Below the pieces are notes generated by a model. The model had not been told where the DNA came from. It worked only from the letters and a program-made list of their open reading frames with translations, and searched no databases. The position numbers and the translations under genes are program-made. From Escherichia coli (GTDB lineage Bacteria; Pseudomonadota; Gammaproteobacteria; Enterobacterales; Enterobacteriaceae): 44,355 bases of DNA. Positions 1,355-40,443 of this stretch are shown piece by piece. The stretch lies in NCBI RefSeq assembly GCF_044324785.1, contig NZ_CP172130.1; one strand, written 5' to 3'. Within the stretch, counting starts at the first letter, position 1; the number at the start of each line of letters is the position of its first letter.

Positions 1355-1468
1355 CCTTTTCACTGTGATGCAGGATAGGGCAAACGCCGTAAAATGACGT
1401 CATTGACGCCATTTTACGGCGTTTGCCCGGTAACCTACAGTCGGTTCTTATTGGAGAATTTTATGAAA
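1355..1468. promoter_or_regulatory. oriT-like / beta-origin-like element, copy A of a ~110-bp inverted repeat pair; contains a perfect 19-bp palindrome
   Basis: GGGCAAACGCCGTAAAATG...CATTTTACGGCGTTTGCCC palindrome; about 85% identical in inverted orientation to 40331..40443 next to taxA; ends in GGAGAATTTT-ATG. Confidence 0.5.
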
Positions 1469-23754: not shown

Positions 23755-24291
23755 TTAGTTATGTTTGTATCGCCACTCCCACGGTGGAACCGGATTTGCA
23801 TCGGCCCACAAACCGCGTTTTTGTTCCTGAGCTTCCCGTTGTAGAGCCGGTAATGACTCATCCACGTTGTAACGTTCATATACCCATGCAGCGCCAGACT
23901 GAACCATAAAGCGGCTGGCATCCGTGCCGTTCGTCGTGAACACATGACCGATAATGCGTCCGTAGCGGTCTTTATGTGAATAAGAGACTGTCACCTGTTT
24001 ACCTGCAACCAGAGTTTTAAGCTGACTAGTTGACCAGCGTCCAAAAGGTTGTTTCTTTTCAGGGGCATCGATGTTTATCAATCGGACTCGGATCGGAACT
24101 TCATACACAACAATTTTTGCGGGTAGTGTTTTAATTTCTATAGTGTCGCCATCGAGAACACGAATAACTTTCCCCTGGATTTCCAGGTTTAATGTAGAAA
24201 GTATTCCTGCTAAAGCACCAGGTATTCCACCTGCATTTGCAGACTGAAAAGCAGTAAACAGGAATAAAATCACGCTTAAAAAAATCCTCAT
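23755..24291 (-). CDS. Secreted thermonuclease (SNase-like) family nuclease
   Basis: N-terminal signal peptide (MRIFLSVILFLFTAFQSANA); conserved SNase-like motifs (VIRVLDGDTI, RLINIDAPE, KDRYGRI..., GLWAD). Confidence 0.75.
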   Translation of the reverse strand: MRIFLSVILFLFTAFQSANAGGIPGALAGILSTLNLEIQGKVIRVLDGDTIEIKTLPAKIVVYEVPIRVRLINIDAPEKKQPFGRWSTSQLKTLVAGKQVTVSYSHKDRYGRIIGHVFTTNGTDASRFMVQSGAAWVYERYNVDESLPALQREAQEQKRGLWADANPVPPWEWRYKHN

Positions 24292-24722
24292 TCAACGTCT
24301 CCTTTTCTCTTTCTACGATAAAATAGTTCTTCCAGTGCACAAAAATTAAAGGTAAACCAGACCACAAAGCCAATAACAACTGACGACCAATAAAAATATC
24401 GAATAGAACCGTCAACAGATTCCTGCCAGTCAGCAGCATCAACTAACGTTGTTATACATTTATTTTTTAATACATGTTCAGTTGTGGAGTTTGTCAACTC
24501 CATATCCTGTGGTACGCCCTTTTCGAAAAGACAGACGTTAACCTTATCAGAAGGAGTATCGGTTATAAGCCCCCTAGCCTCTTTTAAAAATGAACCAGCA
24601 GTTGAGTTATTAAACGAAAAAAACATAAAAACAACAAATAAAGATATTGATGGGGCTGTGATAAAACTAAAAACAAAAACTTGCCGAAGCATACGATTGA
24701 CATAACTAAATTTATTCATCAT
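24288..24722 (-). CDS. Hypothetical integral membrane protein (144 aa)
   Basis: Several hydrophobic segments; 4-bp overlap with the nuclease gene. Confidence 0.5.
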   Translation of the reverse strand: MMNKFSYVNRMLRQVFVFSFITAPSISLFVVFMFFSFNNSTAGSFLKEARGLITDTPSDKVNVCLFEKGVPQDMELTNSTTEHVLKNKCITTLVDAADWQESVDGSIRYFYWSSVVIGFVVWFTFNFCALEELFYRRKRKGDVE

Positions 24723-24803
24723 AAAACTAACGCCCTTCGGTTGTTCAACCCCGCAAATTCCAGATTAAAATCTGGAATCTGCGGCGTTTACATTTATCTC
24801 TGT

Positions 24804-25061
24804 TCAGAAGAATTCTGGATAAATTTTAACCTCATTAATTTCTTCAACTGAAATACGCTCTGGCATAGTCCTCGAACAATACTTTGTGAGAGGAGTTTCT
24901 TTGCAGTTACCTGCTTTACCGGGCGCAATCGTTGCCTCGTAGTTATGAATGATGGCGTTCATAGTCTTATCATCCAATGCATGAGCAGGATTACCAGCTA
25001 TAAAGCCAGAGTGCCCTGCTTTTATTGCATTAAGAAAATCAATCTTTTCTTTTTTTTTCAT
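24804..25061 (-). CDS. Hypothetical protein (85 aa)
   Basis: ORF within the transfer-region gene string. Confidence 0.4.
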   Translation of the reverse strand: MKKKEKIDFLNAIKAGHSGFIAGNPAHALDDKTMNAIIHNYEATIAPGKAGNCKETPLTKYCSRTMPERISVEEINEVKIYPEFF

Positions 25062-31740: not shown

Positions 31741-32874
31741 TCACCCTCCATACATTTTCTTTGCCCTCTCAATAGCTGCCTGACGAAGCTTTTTGGCACC
31801 AATATTAACGCCCTGTCCGGCCAGGTTAGCGGTCTTACCCGTTATTCCCGGAGACTGACCAAACCCGCCTTCCTGACGACGCAGACCTTTCCATGCACCA
31901 ATACCGGCATTTCTGCCCATACCAAGTGCGCCACGCGCCATACGGGATGCACCGAAAACGCCAGCACCAATCCCCATAGCGGCTGCGCCCTGCATGGCAC
32001 CTTCAACACCCACACCTGCAATCTGTGAAGCATAACTTTTCGCCTGCCAGATAATCCAGGCCATGAAAATGCCAGCAGCTAATGAAGTTACTCCCGTTTG
32101 AAGAAGATTGTTTTCTGATGCTGTAGCAATAGACGTACTTAATGCCATGTTTAATTGCCATGTCCCAGCTCTTAGTGCTAATGCTGCAAATAGAAAAACC
32201 AGTAACGAGCTAAAATTAAGCTGTAGCCAGCTATTAAACATTTGCCGAAGGAAACCAAACATCAAACACATGATAAATATTGGCGCAGTGACAGAAAGTA
32301 ATAGTAATGTTAATTCAGCAGCTGCAAATACTATAGAACAAAGCAATAATGCCAAAACACCACCAACATAAGTTAATAAAGCACCAATCCCACCGGCAAC
32401 AGGCACAGTAGATGTATCTTTATCAAAAATAAGAGTTGCAACTTGTATAACCTTCACCCATAACTGATCCATCCATACCCACGGATCTCCCCCTGCCAAT
32501 GTATTTTTCAATCCATCAATAGCATCTGTTGCTGATGTAAGTATTCCCCCTGTATTCTTAACAAAAAGCAATATTATGTAAAACCTACAGATATTCCAGA
32601 TAAAATCAGGTACAGGTGTCTGTTGTTTCCTTGCTAATACAGTAAAGGCATACCATAAAACATACAGAGAAACTCCATATTTACCAAGAGTATAAGCCAC
32701 ATCTGAATATTCACTTAATTTTCCAGATATACTCTTATTGAGAATGTTAAATATAACTTCATGAGTTGTCTGAAAAAAATCAGAATCAAACCCAGGAACA
32801 CCTCCCGCATTTGCGGGAGAGGTTACATTACCTGATAAATCAGTACCATCCGGTATACCAGTGACAATCCCCAT
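31741..32874 (-). CDS. pilX6: T4SS VirB6 homologue (polytopic membrane protein)
   Basis: 377 aa, multiple transmembrane segments; gene order. Confidence 0.8.
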   Translation of the reverse strand: MGIVTGIPDGTDLSGNVTSPANAGGVPGFDSDFFQTTHEVIFNILNKSISGKLSEYSDVAYTLGKYGVSLYVLWYAFTVLARKQQTPVPDFIWNICRFYIILLFVKNTGGILTSATDAIDGLKNTLAGGDPWVWMDQLWVKVIQVATLIFDKDTSTVPVAGGIGALLTYVGGVLALLLCSIVFAAAELTLLLLSVTAPIFIMCLMFGFLRQMFNSWLQLNFSSLLVFLFAALALRAGTWQLNMALSTSIATASENNLLQTGVTSLAAGIFMAWIIWQAKSYASQIAGVGVEGAMQGAAAMGIGAGVFGASRMARGALGMGRNAGIGAWKGLRRQEGGFGQSPGITGKTANLAGQGVNIGAKKLRQAAIERAKKMYGG

Positions 32875-37610: not shown

Positions 37611-37819
37611 TCGTCAGGAATATCAGCCCCATGAATAAGCTCTTTCATCGCCTGAGATTTGTATTTTTTAATAAGATACTGAACAAAACCAGAATCAGAG
37701 ATACGCCTCCCCCTCTTGAAACTTATTTCAATTGCAATTTTTTCAACTTCAACACGAACTTCTGTAGGAAGGTAGAGTACATTGCGTTGCGGTTTCCGCT
37801 TTCCTTTTATAGCTGTCAT
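37607..37819 (-). CDS. Small basic protein (70 aa) upstream of pilX1, possible regulator
   Basis: ORF with 4-bp overlap onto pilX1; overlaps the 3' end of the actX frame in another frame, so one of the two boundaries is uncertain. Confidence 0.35.
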   Translation of the reverse strand: MTAIKGKRKPQRNVLYLPTEVRVEVEKIAIEISFKRGRRISDSGFVQYLIKKYKSQAMKELIHGADIPDE

Positions 37820-38303
37820 TTTTTAACCTGTCGTATTTTCTGTTACACACATAGTCGGCAAAGACTTGTCCACGCTTTGAAGCGTCTGCAAGGAGAAGTA
37901 TTTTTGCCAGACAGGAGTTATTCATCAGGCTTAAATTCATCGAAAAAATCTTCTCCTGCTCTTTTACTTCATTTATGACACTTAGAGGAACTTCAGCAGG
38001 ATATTCACCAAAACTGACCAGTCCATAAACATTTTTCATCCGGGTAAAGCAGGATGGATGTACAACCTCAAAATCCAGAAGAACGAATACATAACCGGGA
38101 AACATTGGCATGATTTGTCCCCTGTATGCACTACAGTCACGCCTCTTATAGAAAGTGCGTATAACTGGATTGTAGTAAGCGATACCGCTCCGGGATAACT
38201 GCAACAGAACCGACTGATGAAAATGCGGAGAACACTGAAGCAGGTAAAACTGTTTCTGTCCTTTCATACTCAATCCCCGATATACAGATGTGACAAAACA
38301 CAA
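37749..38303 (-). CDS. actX: NusG/RfaH-like transcription antiterminator (ActX-type activator of the pilX operon)
   Basis: Family assignment is mainly positional (first gene of the pilX operon), with weak sequence resemblance to NusG-like proteins; probable true start at the internal ATG (MKGQKQFYLL...). Confidence 0.6.
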   Translation of the reverse strand: MCFVTSVYRGLSMKGQKQFYLLQCSPHFHQSVLLQLSRSGIAYYNPVIRTFYKRRDCSAYRGQIMPMFPGYVFVLLDFEVVHPSCFTRMKNVYGLVSFGEYPAEVPLSVINEVKEQEKIFSMNLSLMNNSCLAKILLLADASKRGQVFADYVCNRKYDRLKNDSYKRKAETATQCTLPSYRSSC

Positions 38304-38619
38304 GCCAACCGTGGTTGCTTGTGAGAAATCACGCCCCTATGAAGAGAGACTTTTTACTATTGCGCGAAGTTTATACTACAAGTGGCTTATGCTAAGTTCA
38401 ACACATAAAACAGATCTTTCGATCTTGATAAATCAATTTTTCTTTCATTTATTCCATGTAAACAATAAAACATAGAATATTCATCTTTTGCAGATCTATT
38501 TTTTAGATCGATAGATCGAATGATAGCTAAAACGCAGAATTTCGATCTGTTTTTAAGGCGAAAAGATGAGCAAGCGAACTAAAATAAATATTTTTCTCGC
38601 ATAATCAATACATTAAATC

Positions 38620-39792
38620 TTATAAGCCCAAAAACTTAATCCCTGTTTTCAGCTTCTGTTCTGACTGTAACGTGGATGCTTTCTGCTGCGTAAACTGCGC
38701 CATTCGCTGTTGTTGCTTCAACAGCATATCAGGGCTGTTCAGTACCAGCTCTTTGCTGGCTGAAGGTGTTCTGTCTACGCCCTTAACCCCCAGATTTTCT
38801 AACTGCCACTCATTTCTGTGAACCGTTTTCCAGCCATGCTGAACACCATTTTTATCGAGCGCCGGGATTTTTACTTCTTTCTGACCAAGTTTCTTCAGTC
38901 TGACAAGATCACCTGCTTTAACGCTTTCCCGCGAACATAAGTCCCCAAAATCAGCCCCCCAGTATGTTTTCTCAACCCCCTTGTTAAGAGTCTTTAGCTT
39001 TATAAAATGTTGCTTAGACTTTGTTTTATCGTTCTGATAATGGTCATAGCCAATATCAACAACCTCATAAACACCTTTCTGTCTTTTTGGTGCTGTATTA
39101 TGTGCATCTTTAACAGACTGATTAAGTCCATGCTGTTGCTTATGGGTCGCTTTAACGTCATAACCTTTTAACTTCAACTCTTCACAAAAACCTGTACGAA
39201 TTTCCCGTAAATCTTTTTTCCTGATATCAGCGCGTTTACCGTCATTATCTCGGATACGAAAAACAACATGAACGTGAGGATGTTCTTTCTTATCACAGTG
39301 GTATCCAAGAACAAAACGGTGATTAGGATATTTTTTCTGCATCGTTTTCCTGACAGACTCCAGCAAATCTTCAGGCTTTACTTTCGCTGAAACTGGAGGC
39401 GAGAAGACAATATTCTGTGTGATTTTTTTATTTTCTTTACCTTTATCATTCATCACATGCTGAGGATCATTAGCACGATCTATCATGTGCTCTTTAGCTT
39501 CCAGAATTTCGTCACCCGTCCATACCCGACCGCTTTCACTCATCACTGGTAGCTCTGACTCACGGCTCATATAATCAATACTGTTCCGAATCCCCTGACG
39601 AGTAATAGCACCTCCAGATATTTTGACAACAACCTCCTTACTGGCACCCTTGCGGTTGATACGTTCCTGAACATTGCGGCTATAGTTCTTTCCACCATTT
39701 TTGACTTTGTGAGCGAAAGCTGACTTACGACCATTTTCTGATGACTTTCGTTTAACACGATATTCTTTATCAACGTAAACGCCCATAATCAC
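38620..39792 (-). CDS. taxC: Conjugative relaxase (MOBP-type)
   Basis: 390 aa; histidine triad HPHVHVV and N-terminal catalytic region; adjacent to taxA and the oriT-like repeat. Confidence 0.8.
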   Translation of the reverse strand: MIMGVYVDKEYRVKRKSSENGRKSAFAHKVKNGGKNYSRNVQERINRKGASKEVVVKISGGAITRQGIRNSIDYMSRESELPVMSESGRVWTGDEILEAKEHMIDRANDPQHVMNDKGKENKKITQNIVFSPPVSAKVKPEDLLESVRKTMQKKYPNHRFVLGYHCDKKEHPHVHVVFRIRDNDGKRADIRKKDLREIRTGFCEELKLKGYDVKATHKQQHGLNQSVKDAHNTAPKRQKGVYEVVDIGYDHYQNDKTKSKQHFIKLKTLNKGVEKTYWGADFGDLCSRESVKAGDLVRLKKLGQKEVKIPALDKNGVQHGWKTVHRNEWQLENLGVKGVDRTPSASKELVLNSPDMLLKQQQRMAQFTQQKASTLQSEQKLKTGIKFLGL

Positions 39793-40334
39793 ATCTCCAC
39801 TTTATTTGAAACAGTTCTCCCTTTACATAACATAATGTAATTCTCAAACTGATTCTTAAGATTAAAAATTTCTGTTGTAAGACGCTCCGCATCCTGATAG
39901 AAACCATCTTTATCAAGAACCCTGGTCTGATCATTAACAATGATATAATGGAAATTACGACCGATCTTATCAATTGAATTACGGCAACGATTCATCATCA
40001 GCAGTTCCTGGTCAAAGAAATCCAGTTCATTTTCAAGTGTCGTCTGTATGCGGTAACGACATTCTCGTGATAACGTCCATCCGTGACGATTAGCAGCTCT
40101 TTCAATATCAGCCCTTTGTTTACCTGTTAAGTACATCGTTGTTTTGATAAAATCATTATTATCAAAAAACGTATTTATATCCTTACTGACAGCTTTACTT
40201 TTTAATAAAGCATTTGCTAAAAGTTTCATGCCTTTAGCTACTGTTAAAGCTGGTTCATCCGGATAAAGAGTTTTAAGGCAATCCAGCAAATCATCATGCT
40301 GATTTTCATCAATTCTGAATTGAACTTTTTTCAT
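39789..40334 (-). CDS. taxA: Relaxosome accessory protein
   Basis: 181 aa from the ATG preceded by GGAGAA; the 23-codon extension in the ORF track is the translated inverted repeat. Confidence 0.65.
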   Translation of the reverse strand: MKKVQFRIDENQHDDLLDCLKTLYPDEPALTVAKGMKLLANALLKSKAVSKDINTFFDNNDFIKTTMYLTGKQRADIERAANRHGWTLSRECRYRIQTTLENELDFFDQELLMMNRCRNSIDKIGRNFHYIIVNDQTRVLDKDGFYQDAERLTTEIFNLKNQFENYIMLCKGRTVSNKVEM

Positions 40335-40443
40335 AAAATTCTCCAACAAGAACCGACTGTAGGTCACCGGGCAAATGTTGCGGAATGGCGTCAGAGACGT
40401 CATTTTGCAGTGTTTGCCCTATCCTGCATCGCAGTGAATCTGG
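40331..40443. promoter_or_regulatory. oriT-like / alpha-origin-like element, copy B of the inverted repeat pair
   Basis: About 85% identical (inverted) to 1355..1468, including the GGGCAAAC...GTTTGCCC palindrome and the shared GGAGAATTTTATGAAA translation start. Confidence 0.5.

What the first reader, a model, noticed from the sequence alone, without database searches (positions are those of the whole stretch)
24757..24790. Near-perfect 16-bp-arm palindrome in an intergenic gap of the transfer-region gene string
CCGCAAATTCCAGATT-AA-AATCTGGAATCTGCGG lies between the 85-aa and 144-aa genes. It is not followed by a T-run on either strand, so it looks more like an operator or RNA processing site than a terminator.
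Basis: seen in the sequence. Interest (0 to 1): 0.25.

Follow-up and report, generated by a model that had tools for sequence, protein, structure and literature searches.

The report
Conserved RNA hairpin between plasmid genes
The palindrome is real and is the core of a roughly 70-base element, conserved across IncX-type resistance plasmids, that folds as a 20-base-pair hairpin in the messenger RNA between two genes and is followed by an almost invariant leader for the next gene; it is not a protein-binding operator or a classical terminator, but its exact job is still untested.

Summary
The palindrome exists, but at 24751-24784, not 24757-24790. It extends to 20-nt arms (24747-24788) and is the only long tight inverted repeat in the 44-kb window, which is an IncX1 plasmid backbone.

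Both flanking genes are on the minus strand. On that sense strand the single arm mismatch becomes a G·U pair.

Across 34 distinct copies from IncX1/X3/X4/X5-type and related plasmids, 94% of stem cells pair and 15 of 19 pairs show compensatory double changes. On the 21-copy hand alignment, non-Watson-Crick pairs are G·U on the sense strand 33 times against 2 on the antisense strand. So a single strand folds, most likely the mRNA. This rules out a symmetric dsDNA operator.

An almost invariant 20-nt block, GAACAACCGAAGGGCGUUAG (24746-24727), directly follows the hairpin. Unrelated downstream genes often start 2-6 nt after it, so it acts as a portable leader with a Shine-Dalgarno-like AAGGG.

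There is no U-tract and no room for a promoter. The real oriTs lie about 15 kb away, and there is no Rfam match.

Best reading: an unannotated intercistronic mRNA punctuation element that is read through, probably an RNase III/stability hairpin plus a translation leader. The function is inferred, not shown. Interest is moderate.

The parts
24747..24788 (-). Full hairpin: 20-nt arms (sense RNA 5'-AACGCCGCAGAUUCCAGAUU / AAUCUGGAAUUUGCGGGGUU-3') with a G·G mismatch at the 4th pair from the base and one G·U pair
   Evidence: 19 modelled pairs, 94-95% of cells paired, 10/19 (A1) and 15/19 (A2) pairs with compensatory double changes, 0/500 shuffles
24751..24784 (-).
24766..24769 (-). Hairpin loop (UUUA in the RNA); the loop-proximal CAGAUUUUAAUCUG is conserved in most IncX1/X4/X5 copies but replaced in divergent copies
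24727..24746 (-). Nearly invariant single-stranded 3' block GAACAACCGAAGGGCGUUAG directly after the hairpin; the only variants seen are G[A/C/G]AGGG, GGG->GGA and the diverged L012 copy
24733..24738 (-). Shine-Dalgarno-like GAAGGG inside the block, 10 nt before the AUG of the 144-aa gene (weak here at -5.4 kcal/mol; a canonical GGAGGG in some copies at -10.6)
24720..24722 (-). Start codon of the downstream 144-aa gene, 4 nt after the block
24804..24806 (-). Stop codon (UGA) of the upstream 85-aa gene, 15 nt before the hairpin base

Best explanation
The palindrome is the stem of a cis-acting RNA element within the polycistronic transfer-region transcript of IncX-type plasmids. When the minus strand is transcribed, the intercistronic RNA folds into a 19-21-bp hairpin that begins 1-18 nt after the stop codon of the preceding gene. 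An almost invariant unpaired 20-nt leader, GAACAACCGAAGGGCGUUAG, follows at once, carries a Shine-Dalgarno-like AAGGG/GGAGG and very often abuts the next start codon. I propose that RNA polymerase reads through the element and that it works after transcription as a punctuation mark. The long perfect helix would be cut by the host double-strand-specific RNase III, or would otherwise act as a decay barrier, so that the upstream secretion/coupling-protein segment and the downstream segment get independent lifetimes. The hairpin would also insulate the conserved leader, so that the next cistron starts translation from a constant, context-independent ribosome-binding site. Shown: the structure, its strand, its conservation, its covariation, its position relative to stop and start codons, and the lack of terminator, promoter, operator and oriT features. 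Inferred: read-through, RNase III or decay-barrier action, and the leader's role in translation. The cause of the leader's near-invariance is unexplained. The element persists in plasmids whose own proteins are highly divergent, so I suspect a conserved host partner.
For: Structure and strand. The sense-strand fold is -31.6 kcal/mol, z = -6.4. In 35 distinct variants the sense strand averages -28.7 kcal/mol against -22.3 for the + strand. In the hand-made alignment A1 (21 sequences), 95.5% of cells pair, 10/19 pairs show double changes and 0/500 shuffles reach that; slid controls pair at 32-50%. In the model-based alignment A2 (34 sequences), 94.3% pair and 15/19 pairs show double changes. There are 33 sense-only G·U against 2 antisense-only, over 9 columns against 2.

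Conservation beyond the flanks. Of 581 plasmid records, many share only about 60 bp centred on the element while neighbouring genes differ. A true IncX4 plasmid with no NusG paralog, another relaxase and a rearranged T4SS keeps it at 98% identity.

Intercistronic geometry. An upstream stop codon lies 1-18 nt before the hairpin base in most copies. An ATG lies 2-6 nt after the block in 16 of 38 distinct contexts, in front of unrelated genes (thermonuclease, TrbM-like, 61-, 67- and 144-aa). A GGAGGG variant sits 7 nt before an AUG.

Not the operon's end in every plasmid. Copies lie between VirD4 and TrbM (L015), between Cag12 and a TrbM-like gene (L053) and between Cag12 and TrbM in IncX3 pNDM-HN380 (L077:34284-34356); some plasmids have two copies. 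In IncX4, trbM is co-transcribed with the pilX operon (PMC8725589).

Stem length of 19-21 bp is kept even where the stem sequence is unrelated. From established knowledge, this is the size class of E. coli RNase III hairpin substrates, and it is far above the 7-8 bp typical of E. coli terminators (figure quoted in PMC10325885).

No U-tract, terminator or promoter call, and no Rfam family.
Against: No transcript, cleavage or half-life data exist for this site, so function is inferred from anatomy. G·T wobble is also tolerated in single-stranded DNA, so the strand asymmetry alone does not separate RNA from minus-strand ssDNA. The Shine-Dalgarno match in the window's own copy is weak (-5.4 kcal/mol, no better than 69% of composition-matched shuffles). 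In 22 of 38 contexts the next start codon is further away or absent, so translation cannot explain the invariance of all 20 nt. Constant stem length could be a passive result of compensatory evolution rather than a molecular-ruler constraint. In IncX4, the genes reported as induced by PixR end at about trbM/cds6, which fits some termination or attenuation at the element, although induction had already decayed from 250-fold to 4.8-fold by then. The metagenome and genome scans required an exact block, so those copies are biased towards block invariance; the unbiased BLAST classes still show it.
Confidence: 0.45

Rival explanations
1. Partial transcription terminator or attenuator marking the 3' boundary of the pilX/vir-taxB transfer operon. 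The unusually long stem would stop some polymerases, possibly including those modified by the plasmid's NusG-like antiterminator ActX/PrfaH, and so limit expression of the downstream nuclease-topB-hha-hns genes.
For: In most plasmids the element follows the last small gene after taxB-Cag12-TrbM. The window encodes a NusG paralog upstream of the T4SS genes. Long stems of at least 14-15 bp make terminators resistant to processive antitermination in the pLS20 conjugation operon (PMC10325885). At the equivalent position after trbM, IncX3 has a related 12-bp hairpin followed by AACAUUUUUUA. In IncX4 the PixR-induced gene set ends at about trbM/cds6 (PMC8725589).
Against: There is no U-tract. The RNA after the stem is GAACAACCGAAGGG, and in the pLS20 study shortening the U-tract abolished both termination and resistance. 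Genes begin 2-6 nt after the block with no room for a promoter, so they need read-through. Copies sit upstream of trbM, which is part of the operon. The element is kept in IncX4 plasmids that lack any NusG paralog.
Confidence: 0.2
2. A single-stranded DNA signal. The minus-strand hairpin plus the conserved flank would act on ssDNA made during conjugation or lagging-strand synthesis, for example as a priming (ssi-type) site or as a secondary nick/termination site for a relaxase-like enzyme.
For: The architecture, a covarying hairpin of arbitrary sequence next to an invariant flank, is the classic layout of oriT, Rep nick sites and ssi signals (established knowledge). The strand asymmetry is equally compatible with G·T in ssDNA. 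IncX plasmids have two inverted oriTs, so either strand can be transferred.
Against: The known IncX oriTs lie in the long inverted repeats at 1359-1468 and 40329-40438, with the MOBP nick motif CCTATCCTG|C. The block bears no resemblance to that motif and is single-copy in the window (PMC3402527, PMC3332091). The element's position is tied to gene punctuation, from stop codon to hairpin to SD-like block to start codon, and it occurs up to twice per plasmid in the sense orientation. A DNA priming or nick site has no reason to respect that geometry. The element is kept in plasmids with unrelated relaxases.
Confidence: 0.08
3. A conserved junction for modular exchange. The block and hairpin would persist mainly because they serve as the homologous crossover point at which small accessory genes are swapped between IncX backbones, with little regulatory role of their own.
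For: Homology between plasmid subgroups breaks sharply at the block's 3' end (...GUUAG), and different genes are joined at the same point. In pSC4R-tetX4 an aph(3')-Ia/IS26 segment abuts it. pCROD2 carries an extra hairpin-only relative between two small genes.
Against: Passive recombination scars do not show compensatory substitutions that maintain pairing, nor a sense-strand G·U bias. The block stays invariant while the adjacent stem diverges completely, which indicates purifying selection on the block's sequence.
Confidence: 0.1
4. A double-stranded DNA operator bound by a dimeric regulator.
For: Near-perfect dyad symmetry. The loop-proximal CAGATT-AAAA-TCTG is conserved in many copies.
Against: The arms covary rather than keep a half-site sequence, and whole stems are replaced in some copies. 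Mismatches are strand-asymmetric. No promoter overlaps the site. The element is conserved among plasmids with different regulators: ActX/PrfaH against PixR (PMC8725589, PMC11880322).
Confidence: 0.03

Closest known systems
RNase III processing hairpins in polycistronic transcripts (e.g. phage T7 early-region R1.1-type signals; rnc and rpsO-pnp leaders) - from established knowledge
   Same: An intercistronic position, a helix of about 20 bp (two turns), tolerated G·U pairs, no U-tract, and placement just upstream of a ribosome-binding site.
   Different: No cleavage has been demonstrated here. T7 signals usually carry an internal loop that directs single-strand cleavage, whereas this stem is nearly perfect. 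None of the known signals has an invariant 20-nt 3' flank shared between unrelated downstream genes.
Intercistronic mRNA-stabilising stem-loops (REP/BIME elements in malEFG; puf operon hairpins) - from established knowledge
   Same: A transcribed hairpin right after a stop codon inside an operon, expected to block 3'-to-5' exonucleases and set different abundances for the operon's segments.
   Different: REP elements are chromosomal, multi-copy and shorter, with a conserved sequence. This element is plasmid-borne (292 of 294 places in E. coli genomes are on plasmids), has 1-2 copies per replicon, has a 20-bp stem of free sequence, and is coupled to a fixed leader.
Antitermination-resistant long-stem terminator TerR of the pLS20 conjugation operon (PMC10325885)
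   Same: An exceptionally long stem (15 bp in TerR, 19-20 bp here) in a conjugation operon that starts with a processive antitermination factor (ActX/PrfaH in the window).
   Different: TerR has a 10-U tract that is required for termination and resistance, and this element has none. This element also occurs inside the transfer gene string and in plasmids without an antiterminator.
oriT / relaxase nick regions (inverted repeat plus conserved nick sequence; RP4-type YATCCTG|Y)
   Same: A covarying inverted repeat directly next to an invariant sequence on one strand.
   Different: The plasmid's real oriTs are elsewhere and carry the MOBP motif. The block has no similarity to that motif and is not next to a relaxase gene. 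Its geometry follows stop and start codons.

Membership tests
Intrinsic (Rho-independent) terminator | Stable G+C-containing RNA stem-loop | tested here: met
   -31.6 kcal/mol, 19-20 bp
Intrinsic (Rho-independent) terminator | U-rich tract immediately 3' of the stem | tested here: not met
   The sense strand continues GAACAACCGAAGGG; the terminator scan finds nothing at this site on either strand
Intrinsic (Rho-independent) terminator | Transcript release at the site | not testable with these tools
   Needs in vitro transcription or Term-seq. Indirect evidence against tight termination: start codons lie 2-6 nt after the block with no promoter space
Palindromic dsDNA operator | Conserved half-site sequence on both arms, symmetric on the two strands | tested here: not met
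   The arms covary and are replaced outright in some copies; 33 against 2 strand-asymmetric G·U
Palindromic dsDNA operator | Overlap with or proximity to a promoter it controls | tested here: not met
   Only one weak 9/12 match, whose -10 overlaps the 144-aa start codon and is not conserved; promoter-like sites are no more frequent than in shuffles
oriT (MOBP type) | Inverted repeat next to the relaxase's nick motif (YATCCTG|Y) and close to the relaxase/accessory genes | tested here: not met
   The nick motif CCTATCCTGC lies in the long inverted repeat at about 40420 next to taxA/taxC; the element is about 15 kb away and lacks the motif (PMC3402527)
RNase III substrate hairpin | Continuous dsRNA helix of about two turns (about 20 bp) in a transcribed region | tested here: met
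   19-21-nt arms in all 34 copies, on the sense strand, between co-directional genes
RNase III substrate hairpin | rnc-dependent cleavage with 2-nt 3' overhangs | not testable with these tools
   Requires RNA end mapping in rnc+ and rnc- cells or an in vitro cleavage assay
Any described RNA family (Rfam 15) | Covariance-model match at or near the gathering score | tested here: not met
   The best hits score 12-19 bits with E of 3-9 against unrelated eukaryotic families
ops-type recruitment site for RfaH/ActX/PrfaH | ops-like non-template-strand motif in the 5' leader of an operon controlled by a NusG paralog | tested here: not met
   GGGCGTTAG matches 7/8 of the GGCGGTAG core, but such matches occur at chance frequency. 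The mapped IncX3 site is a different sequence in the prfaH leader (PMC11880322). The element persists in plasmids without a NusG paralog
Antitermination-resistant long-stem terminator (TerR type) | Long stem plus a long U-tract at the end of an operon that has a processive antiterminator | tested here: not met
   The long stem is present. The U-tract is absent. The position is not always at the operon's end, and an antiterminator is not always present

The most novel reading that the evidence does not exclude
The hairpin plus invariant leader is a previously undescribed, self-contained cis-regulatory RNA module of conjugative IncX-type plasmids. It would be recognised through its invariant single-stranded block by a specific, conserved host factor (a ribonuclease, an RNA chaperone or the ribosome itself). 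It would set the expression ratio between the DNA-transfer machinery and the downstream establishment and maintenance genes (nuclease, topoisomerase III, Hha, H-NS), and it could be moved in front of new genes as a unit.
Probability: 0.3. Interest if true: 0.55.

Novelty: new variant of a known kind. Interest (0 to 1): 0.4.

Why it matters
IncX plasmids are major carriers of mcr-1, blaNDM, blaKPC and tet(X4). Their transfer genes are known to be controlled at transcription initiation and elongation (PixR, ActX/PrfaH, H-NS/Sfx). No post-transcriptional element has been described for them in the papers I could find and read.

This roughly 70-nt motif is more conserved than the protein genes around it. 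It is present in about 5% of complete E. coli genomes and is unannotated in the records examined. It has clean covariation support, which is rare for plasmid non-coding sequence.

If it partitions the long transfer transcript or sets translation of the genes behind it, it adds a layer to the trade-off between conjugation and fitness cost. It would also be a compact, portable "hairpin + RBS" insulator of possible use in synthetic operon design. If it does nothing measurable, it is at least a sharp marker of recombination junctions in IncX backbone evolution.

Tried and rejected
1. oriT. Rejected: the real oriTs were located in the 110-nt long inverted repeats with the MOBP nick motif, the block is single-copy and dissimilar, and the literature agrees.

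2. ops-like site for ActX/PrfaH in the block (GGGCGTTAG against GGCGGTAG). Rejected: such matches occur at chance frequency, the mapped IncX3 site differs, and the element is present in plasmids lacking the factor.

3. Sigma-70 promoter using TTGAAC/TGAACA of the block as the -35, or a + strand promoter TGTTCA-18-TAAAAT with its -10 in the loop. Rejected: the -10 or -35 is not conserved across contexts, loop and arm-length insertions change the spacing, and the scan shows no enrichment (sequences).

4. Small ORF across the element. Rejected: the arms covary with G·U pairs and the flanks are not conserved.

5. Tus/Ter site (GTTGTAAC core, from memory). Rejected by eye: the block has GTTGTTCAAC, a 2-nt insertion.

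6. GcvB sRNA pairing with the C/A-rich ACAACCG. Rejected: the duplex energy with the real gcvB sequence is -21.6 kcal/mol against -22.9 +/- 3.0 for shuffled targets (one search timed out).

7. Rfam families: none.

8. A small second hairpin within the block, or pairing of the block with the 5' arm base (AACGCC with GGCGUU). Noted but unsupported, because the block does not vary enough to test covariation.

9. R6K and pHNSHP23 records could not be fetched, and the figures of the RNA-seq papers are not held, so published coverage across the site could not be read.

10. pOLA52/pIS15_43 and IncX3 papers: no transcript map of this region.

Full report
OBSERVATION. The quoted 34-nt sequence occurs once in the window, at 24751-24784 rather than 24757-24790. 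The repeat finder extends it to 20-nt arms, 24747-24766 and 24769-24788, at 90% complementarity with 2 nt between them. It is one of only two tight inverted repeats in the 44,355 bases; the other is a 14-nt palindrome at 32429-32448. Both flanking ORFs are on the minus strand. The 85-aa gene (24804-25061) is upstream and the 144-aa gene (24288-24722) is downstream. On the + strand the single core mismatch is A·C. On the minus (sense) strand it is G·U. The 81-nt intergenic RNA folds at -31.6 kcal/mol against -14.5 +/- 2.7 for shuffles, z = -6.4. No terminator-like site is reported at this position on either strand. Promoter-like matches in the region are not enriched: 5 found against 6.4 expected.

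WHAT THE WINDOW IS. The region is 100% identical to IncX1 plasmids such as pDKX1-TEM-52. The local minus-strand gene order is virB11, taxB (VirD4-type coupling protein), Cag12-family lipoprotein, TrbM/KikA, the 85-aa gene, [palindrome], the 144-aa gene, thermonuclease, then further genes to topB, hha and hns. Pfam confirms Cag12, TrbM, a MobA/VirD2-type relaxase at 38620-39792 and a NusG-family protein (ActX/PrfaH) at 37749-38303.

CONSERVATION. A sensitive BLAST of 351 bp around the palindrome hit 581 plasmid records. In a large share of them the only shared DNA is about 60 bp, roughly window 24724-24797, while the genes on both sides differ. Thirteen representatives were fetched. They were typed IncX1, X4, X5, 'IncU' or untyped, and all were MOBP. 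In each, the element follows the small genes behind taxB and precedes a variable gene: the 144-aa gene, a 102-aa gene, thermonuclease, DUF6012, or an aph(3')-Ia insertion.

Extracting the copies showed two components. The first is the hairpin, whose arm sequences change in a compensatory way. The second is a nearly invariant block immediately 3' of it on the sense strand, GAACAACCGAAGGGCGUUAG (window 24746-24727). Exact-pattern scans with the block found 4 loci in species-representative genomes (Hafnia, Serratia and others) and 55 metagenome contigs. These gave 35 distinct variants with stems as different as AACCUCGAAAACAAACAGAUU and AACUGUUCAGGCCGCAGAUU.

The element occurs in 278 of 5,426 complete E. 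coli genomes. Of 294 places, 292 are on plasmids, and none carries an RNA or regulatory annotation. It is absent from phages and from Rfam.

STRUCTURE AND STRAND. On a hand-made alignment of 21 distinct sense-strand copies (A1), the 19-pair helix is paired in 95.5% of cells and 10 pairs show changes on both sides. No shuffle out of 500 reaches any of the five measures. Sliding the partners by 1-3 columns drops pairing to 32-50%.

A covariance model built from A1 recovered further copies. On the resulting 34-sequence alignment, 94.3% of cells pair and 15 of 19 pairs show double changes. That alignment is fitted to the model, so it leans towards the structure. The hand alignment does not have this caveat.

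RNAfold energies favour the sense strand, at a mean of -28.7 against -22.3 kcal/mol. In A1 there are 51 non-Watson-Crick cells. Of these, 33 are G·U only on the sense strand and 2 only on the antisense strand, over 9 columns against 2. A double-stranded protein site is symmetric and cannot generate this bias, so the folded molecule is the sense single strand.

WHAT IT IS NOT. It is not oriT. IncX oriTs lie in long inverted repeats near taxC and near the replicon (PMC3402527, PMC3332091). In the window these are 1359-1468 and 40329-40438. The taxA-proximal copy carries the MOBP nick motif CCTATCCTG|C. The block is single-copy and unrelated to that motif.

It is not an ops-type site. GGGCGTTAG resembles the RfaH ops core, but such matches occur at chance frequency. 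The mapped PrfaH site of IncX3 is a different hairpin in the prfaH leader (PMC11880322). The element is retained at 98% identity in IncX4-type plasmids that use PixR and have no NusG paralog (L003 = p31 is listed among IncX4 plasmids in Table S1 of PMC8725589).

It is not a canonical terminator, because it has no U-tract. The pLS20 TerR precedent for long-stem, antitermination-resistant terminators depends on its U-tract (PMC10325885).

It is not a promoter. The candidate hexamers are not conserved across contexts (sequences).

It is not a GcvB target. Pairing with the real gcvB sequence is no better than with shuffled targets.

GEOMETRY RELATIVE TO GENES. In most copies the stop codon of the preceding ORF lies 1-18 nt before the hairpin base, and often overlaps it (GAUAAC). 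After the block, 16 of 38 distinct downstream contexts have an ATG at +2, +4 or +6. These ATGs open unrelated genes: thermonuclease in L016 and L022, a TrbM-like gene in L053, 61- and 67-aa genes, and the 144-aa gene of the window. The block therefore behaves as a portable leader whose AAGGG sits 8-12 nt before the start codon.

The only frequently variable position of the block is the second base of G[A/C/G]AGGG. In the GGAGGG variant an AUG follows directly, with a 7-nt spacing and -10.6 kcal/mol against the anti-SD. The window's GAAGGG is weak, at -5.4 kcal/mol and no better than shuffles. The SD role therefore rests on position, and it does not explain why all 20 nt are fixed.

There is no room for a promoter between the hairpin and these start codons, so the downstream genes must be expressed from transcripts that contain the hairpin.

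POSITION IN THE OPERON. The covariance model found a full copy in IncX3 pNDM-HN380 between Cag12 and TrbM (L077:34284-34356). Its stem sequence is completely different (AACGCCGGAUUAAUAAAAUU...) but its arms are again 20 nt. Second copies occur in L006, L031 and L032. In L015 the element lies between VirD4 and TrbM, and in L053 between Cag12 and a TrbM-like gene. In IncX4, Cappable-seq found a single TSS, and RT-PCR showed that cds9-pilX1-11-taxB-trbM form one operon (PMC8725589). So the element is not simply the end of the operon. It can sit inside a co-transcribed string.

Hairpin-only relatives without the block also occur at equivalent intercistronic positions. pCROD2 has one at L002:2993-3025 with two sense-strand G·U pairs. 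IncX3 has one after trbM, followed by a U6 run.

MECHANISM. Shown: a sense-strand hairpin under selection for pairing, an adjacent sequence-constrained single-stranded block, and placement in the order stop codon, hairpin, SD-like block, start codon.

Inferred: the element is read through and acts on the mRNA. I commit to this reading. It punctuates the polycistronic transfer-region transcript. The 19-21-bp helix is in the size class of E. coli RNase III hairpin substrates (established knowledge) and well above the 7-8 bp of typical E. coli terminators. It is processed or acts as a decay barrier, which uncouples the stability of the upstream and downstream segments. It also keeps the following leader in a constant, unpaired context for translation initiation.

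I put 0.45 on this package: about 0.6 that the element acts at the RNA level at all, and roughly half of that on RNase III specifically. The near-invariance of the block is unexplained. Because the plasmids' own proteins are highly divergent, it points to a conserved host partner.

RIVALS. A U-less attenuator or terminator (0.2). A recombination junction with little function (0.1). A single-stranded DNA signal (0.08). A dsDNA operator (0.03). The remaining probability is unassigned.

VERDICT. The 'RNA processing site' option is the right kind of explanation but is unproven. The element is an unannotated, covariation-supported RNA motif of IncX-type plasmids, best described as a new variant of the known class of intercistronic mRNA hairpins. 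Interest is moderate (0.4).

Noticed in passing
window 37749-38303 (-) and leader ~38325-38337: A NusG-family ActX/PrfaH gene lies upstream of the T4SS genes. Its leader contains GGGGCGTGATTTC, which matches the end of the conserved block (AGGGCGTTAGTTT) at 9 of 13 positions. This is probably coincidence, because the element also occurs in plasmids without a NusG paralog.
   Followed up: partly
window 1359-1468 and 40329-40438: 110-nt long inverted repeats (87% complementary). The taxA-proximal copy carries the MOBP-type nick motif CCTATCCTG|C on the + strand. These are the two IncX oriTs described in the literature.
   Followed up: partly
window 32429-32448: The only other tight palindrome in the window (ATAAGAGTTGCAAC / GTTGCAACTTGTAT, GTTGCAAC core), inside the T4SS gene region.
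   Followed up: no
window 10322-11044, 11637-12359, 15237-15959 (all -): Three ORFs of identical length (240 aa) that share an identical 12-mer, consistent with three IS26-type insertion sequence copies bracketing the resistance region.
   Followed up: no
L002:2993-3025 (pCROD2) and L077:33884-33915 (pNDM-HN380): Hairpin-only relatives of the element at other intercistronic positions. The pCROD2 copy has a 15-bp stem with two sense-strand G·U pairs and no block. The IncX3 copy after trbM has a 12-bp stem followed by AACAUUUUUUA and a strong GGGAGG Shine-Dalgarno sequence.
   Followed up: partly
L019:1334-1405 and L064 (metagenome contigs): The invariant block also occurs behind an unrelated hairpin, downstream of a 310-aa ORF that by eye resembles a plasmid replication-initiator gene (no domain search was run), on a small contig that does not look IncX. 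The block may therefore travel beyond IncX backbones.
   Followed up: partly
alignment A2, 4th pair from the helix base (window 24750 with 24785): In 19 of 34 copies this position is a conserved G·G mismatch. In those copies the 5' base AACGCC is perfectly complementary to GGCGUU inside the block, so an alternative pairing that would partly mask the SD is conceivable. It could not be tested because the block does not vary.
   Followed up: partly
NZ_CP128258.1 (hit H1): A related IncX1 plasmid has an IS903B insertion within the 2.2-kb region around the element. The exact insertion point was not examined.
   Followed up: no
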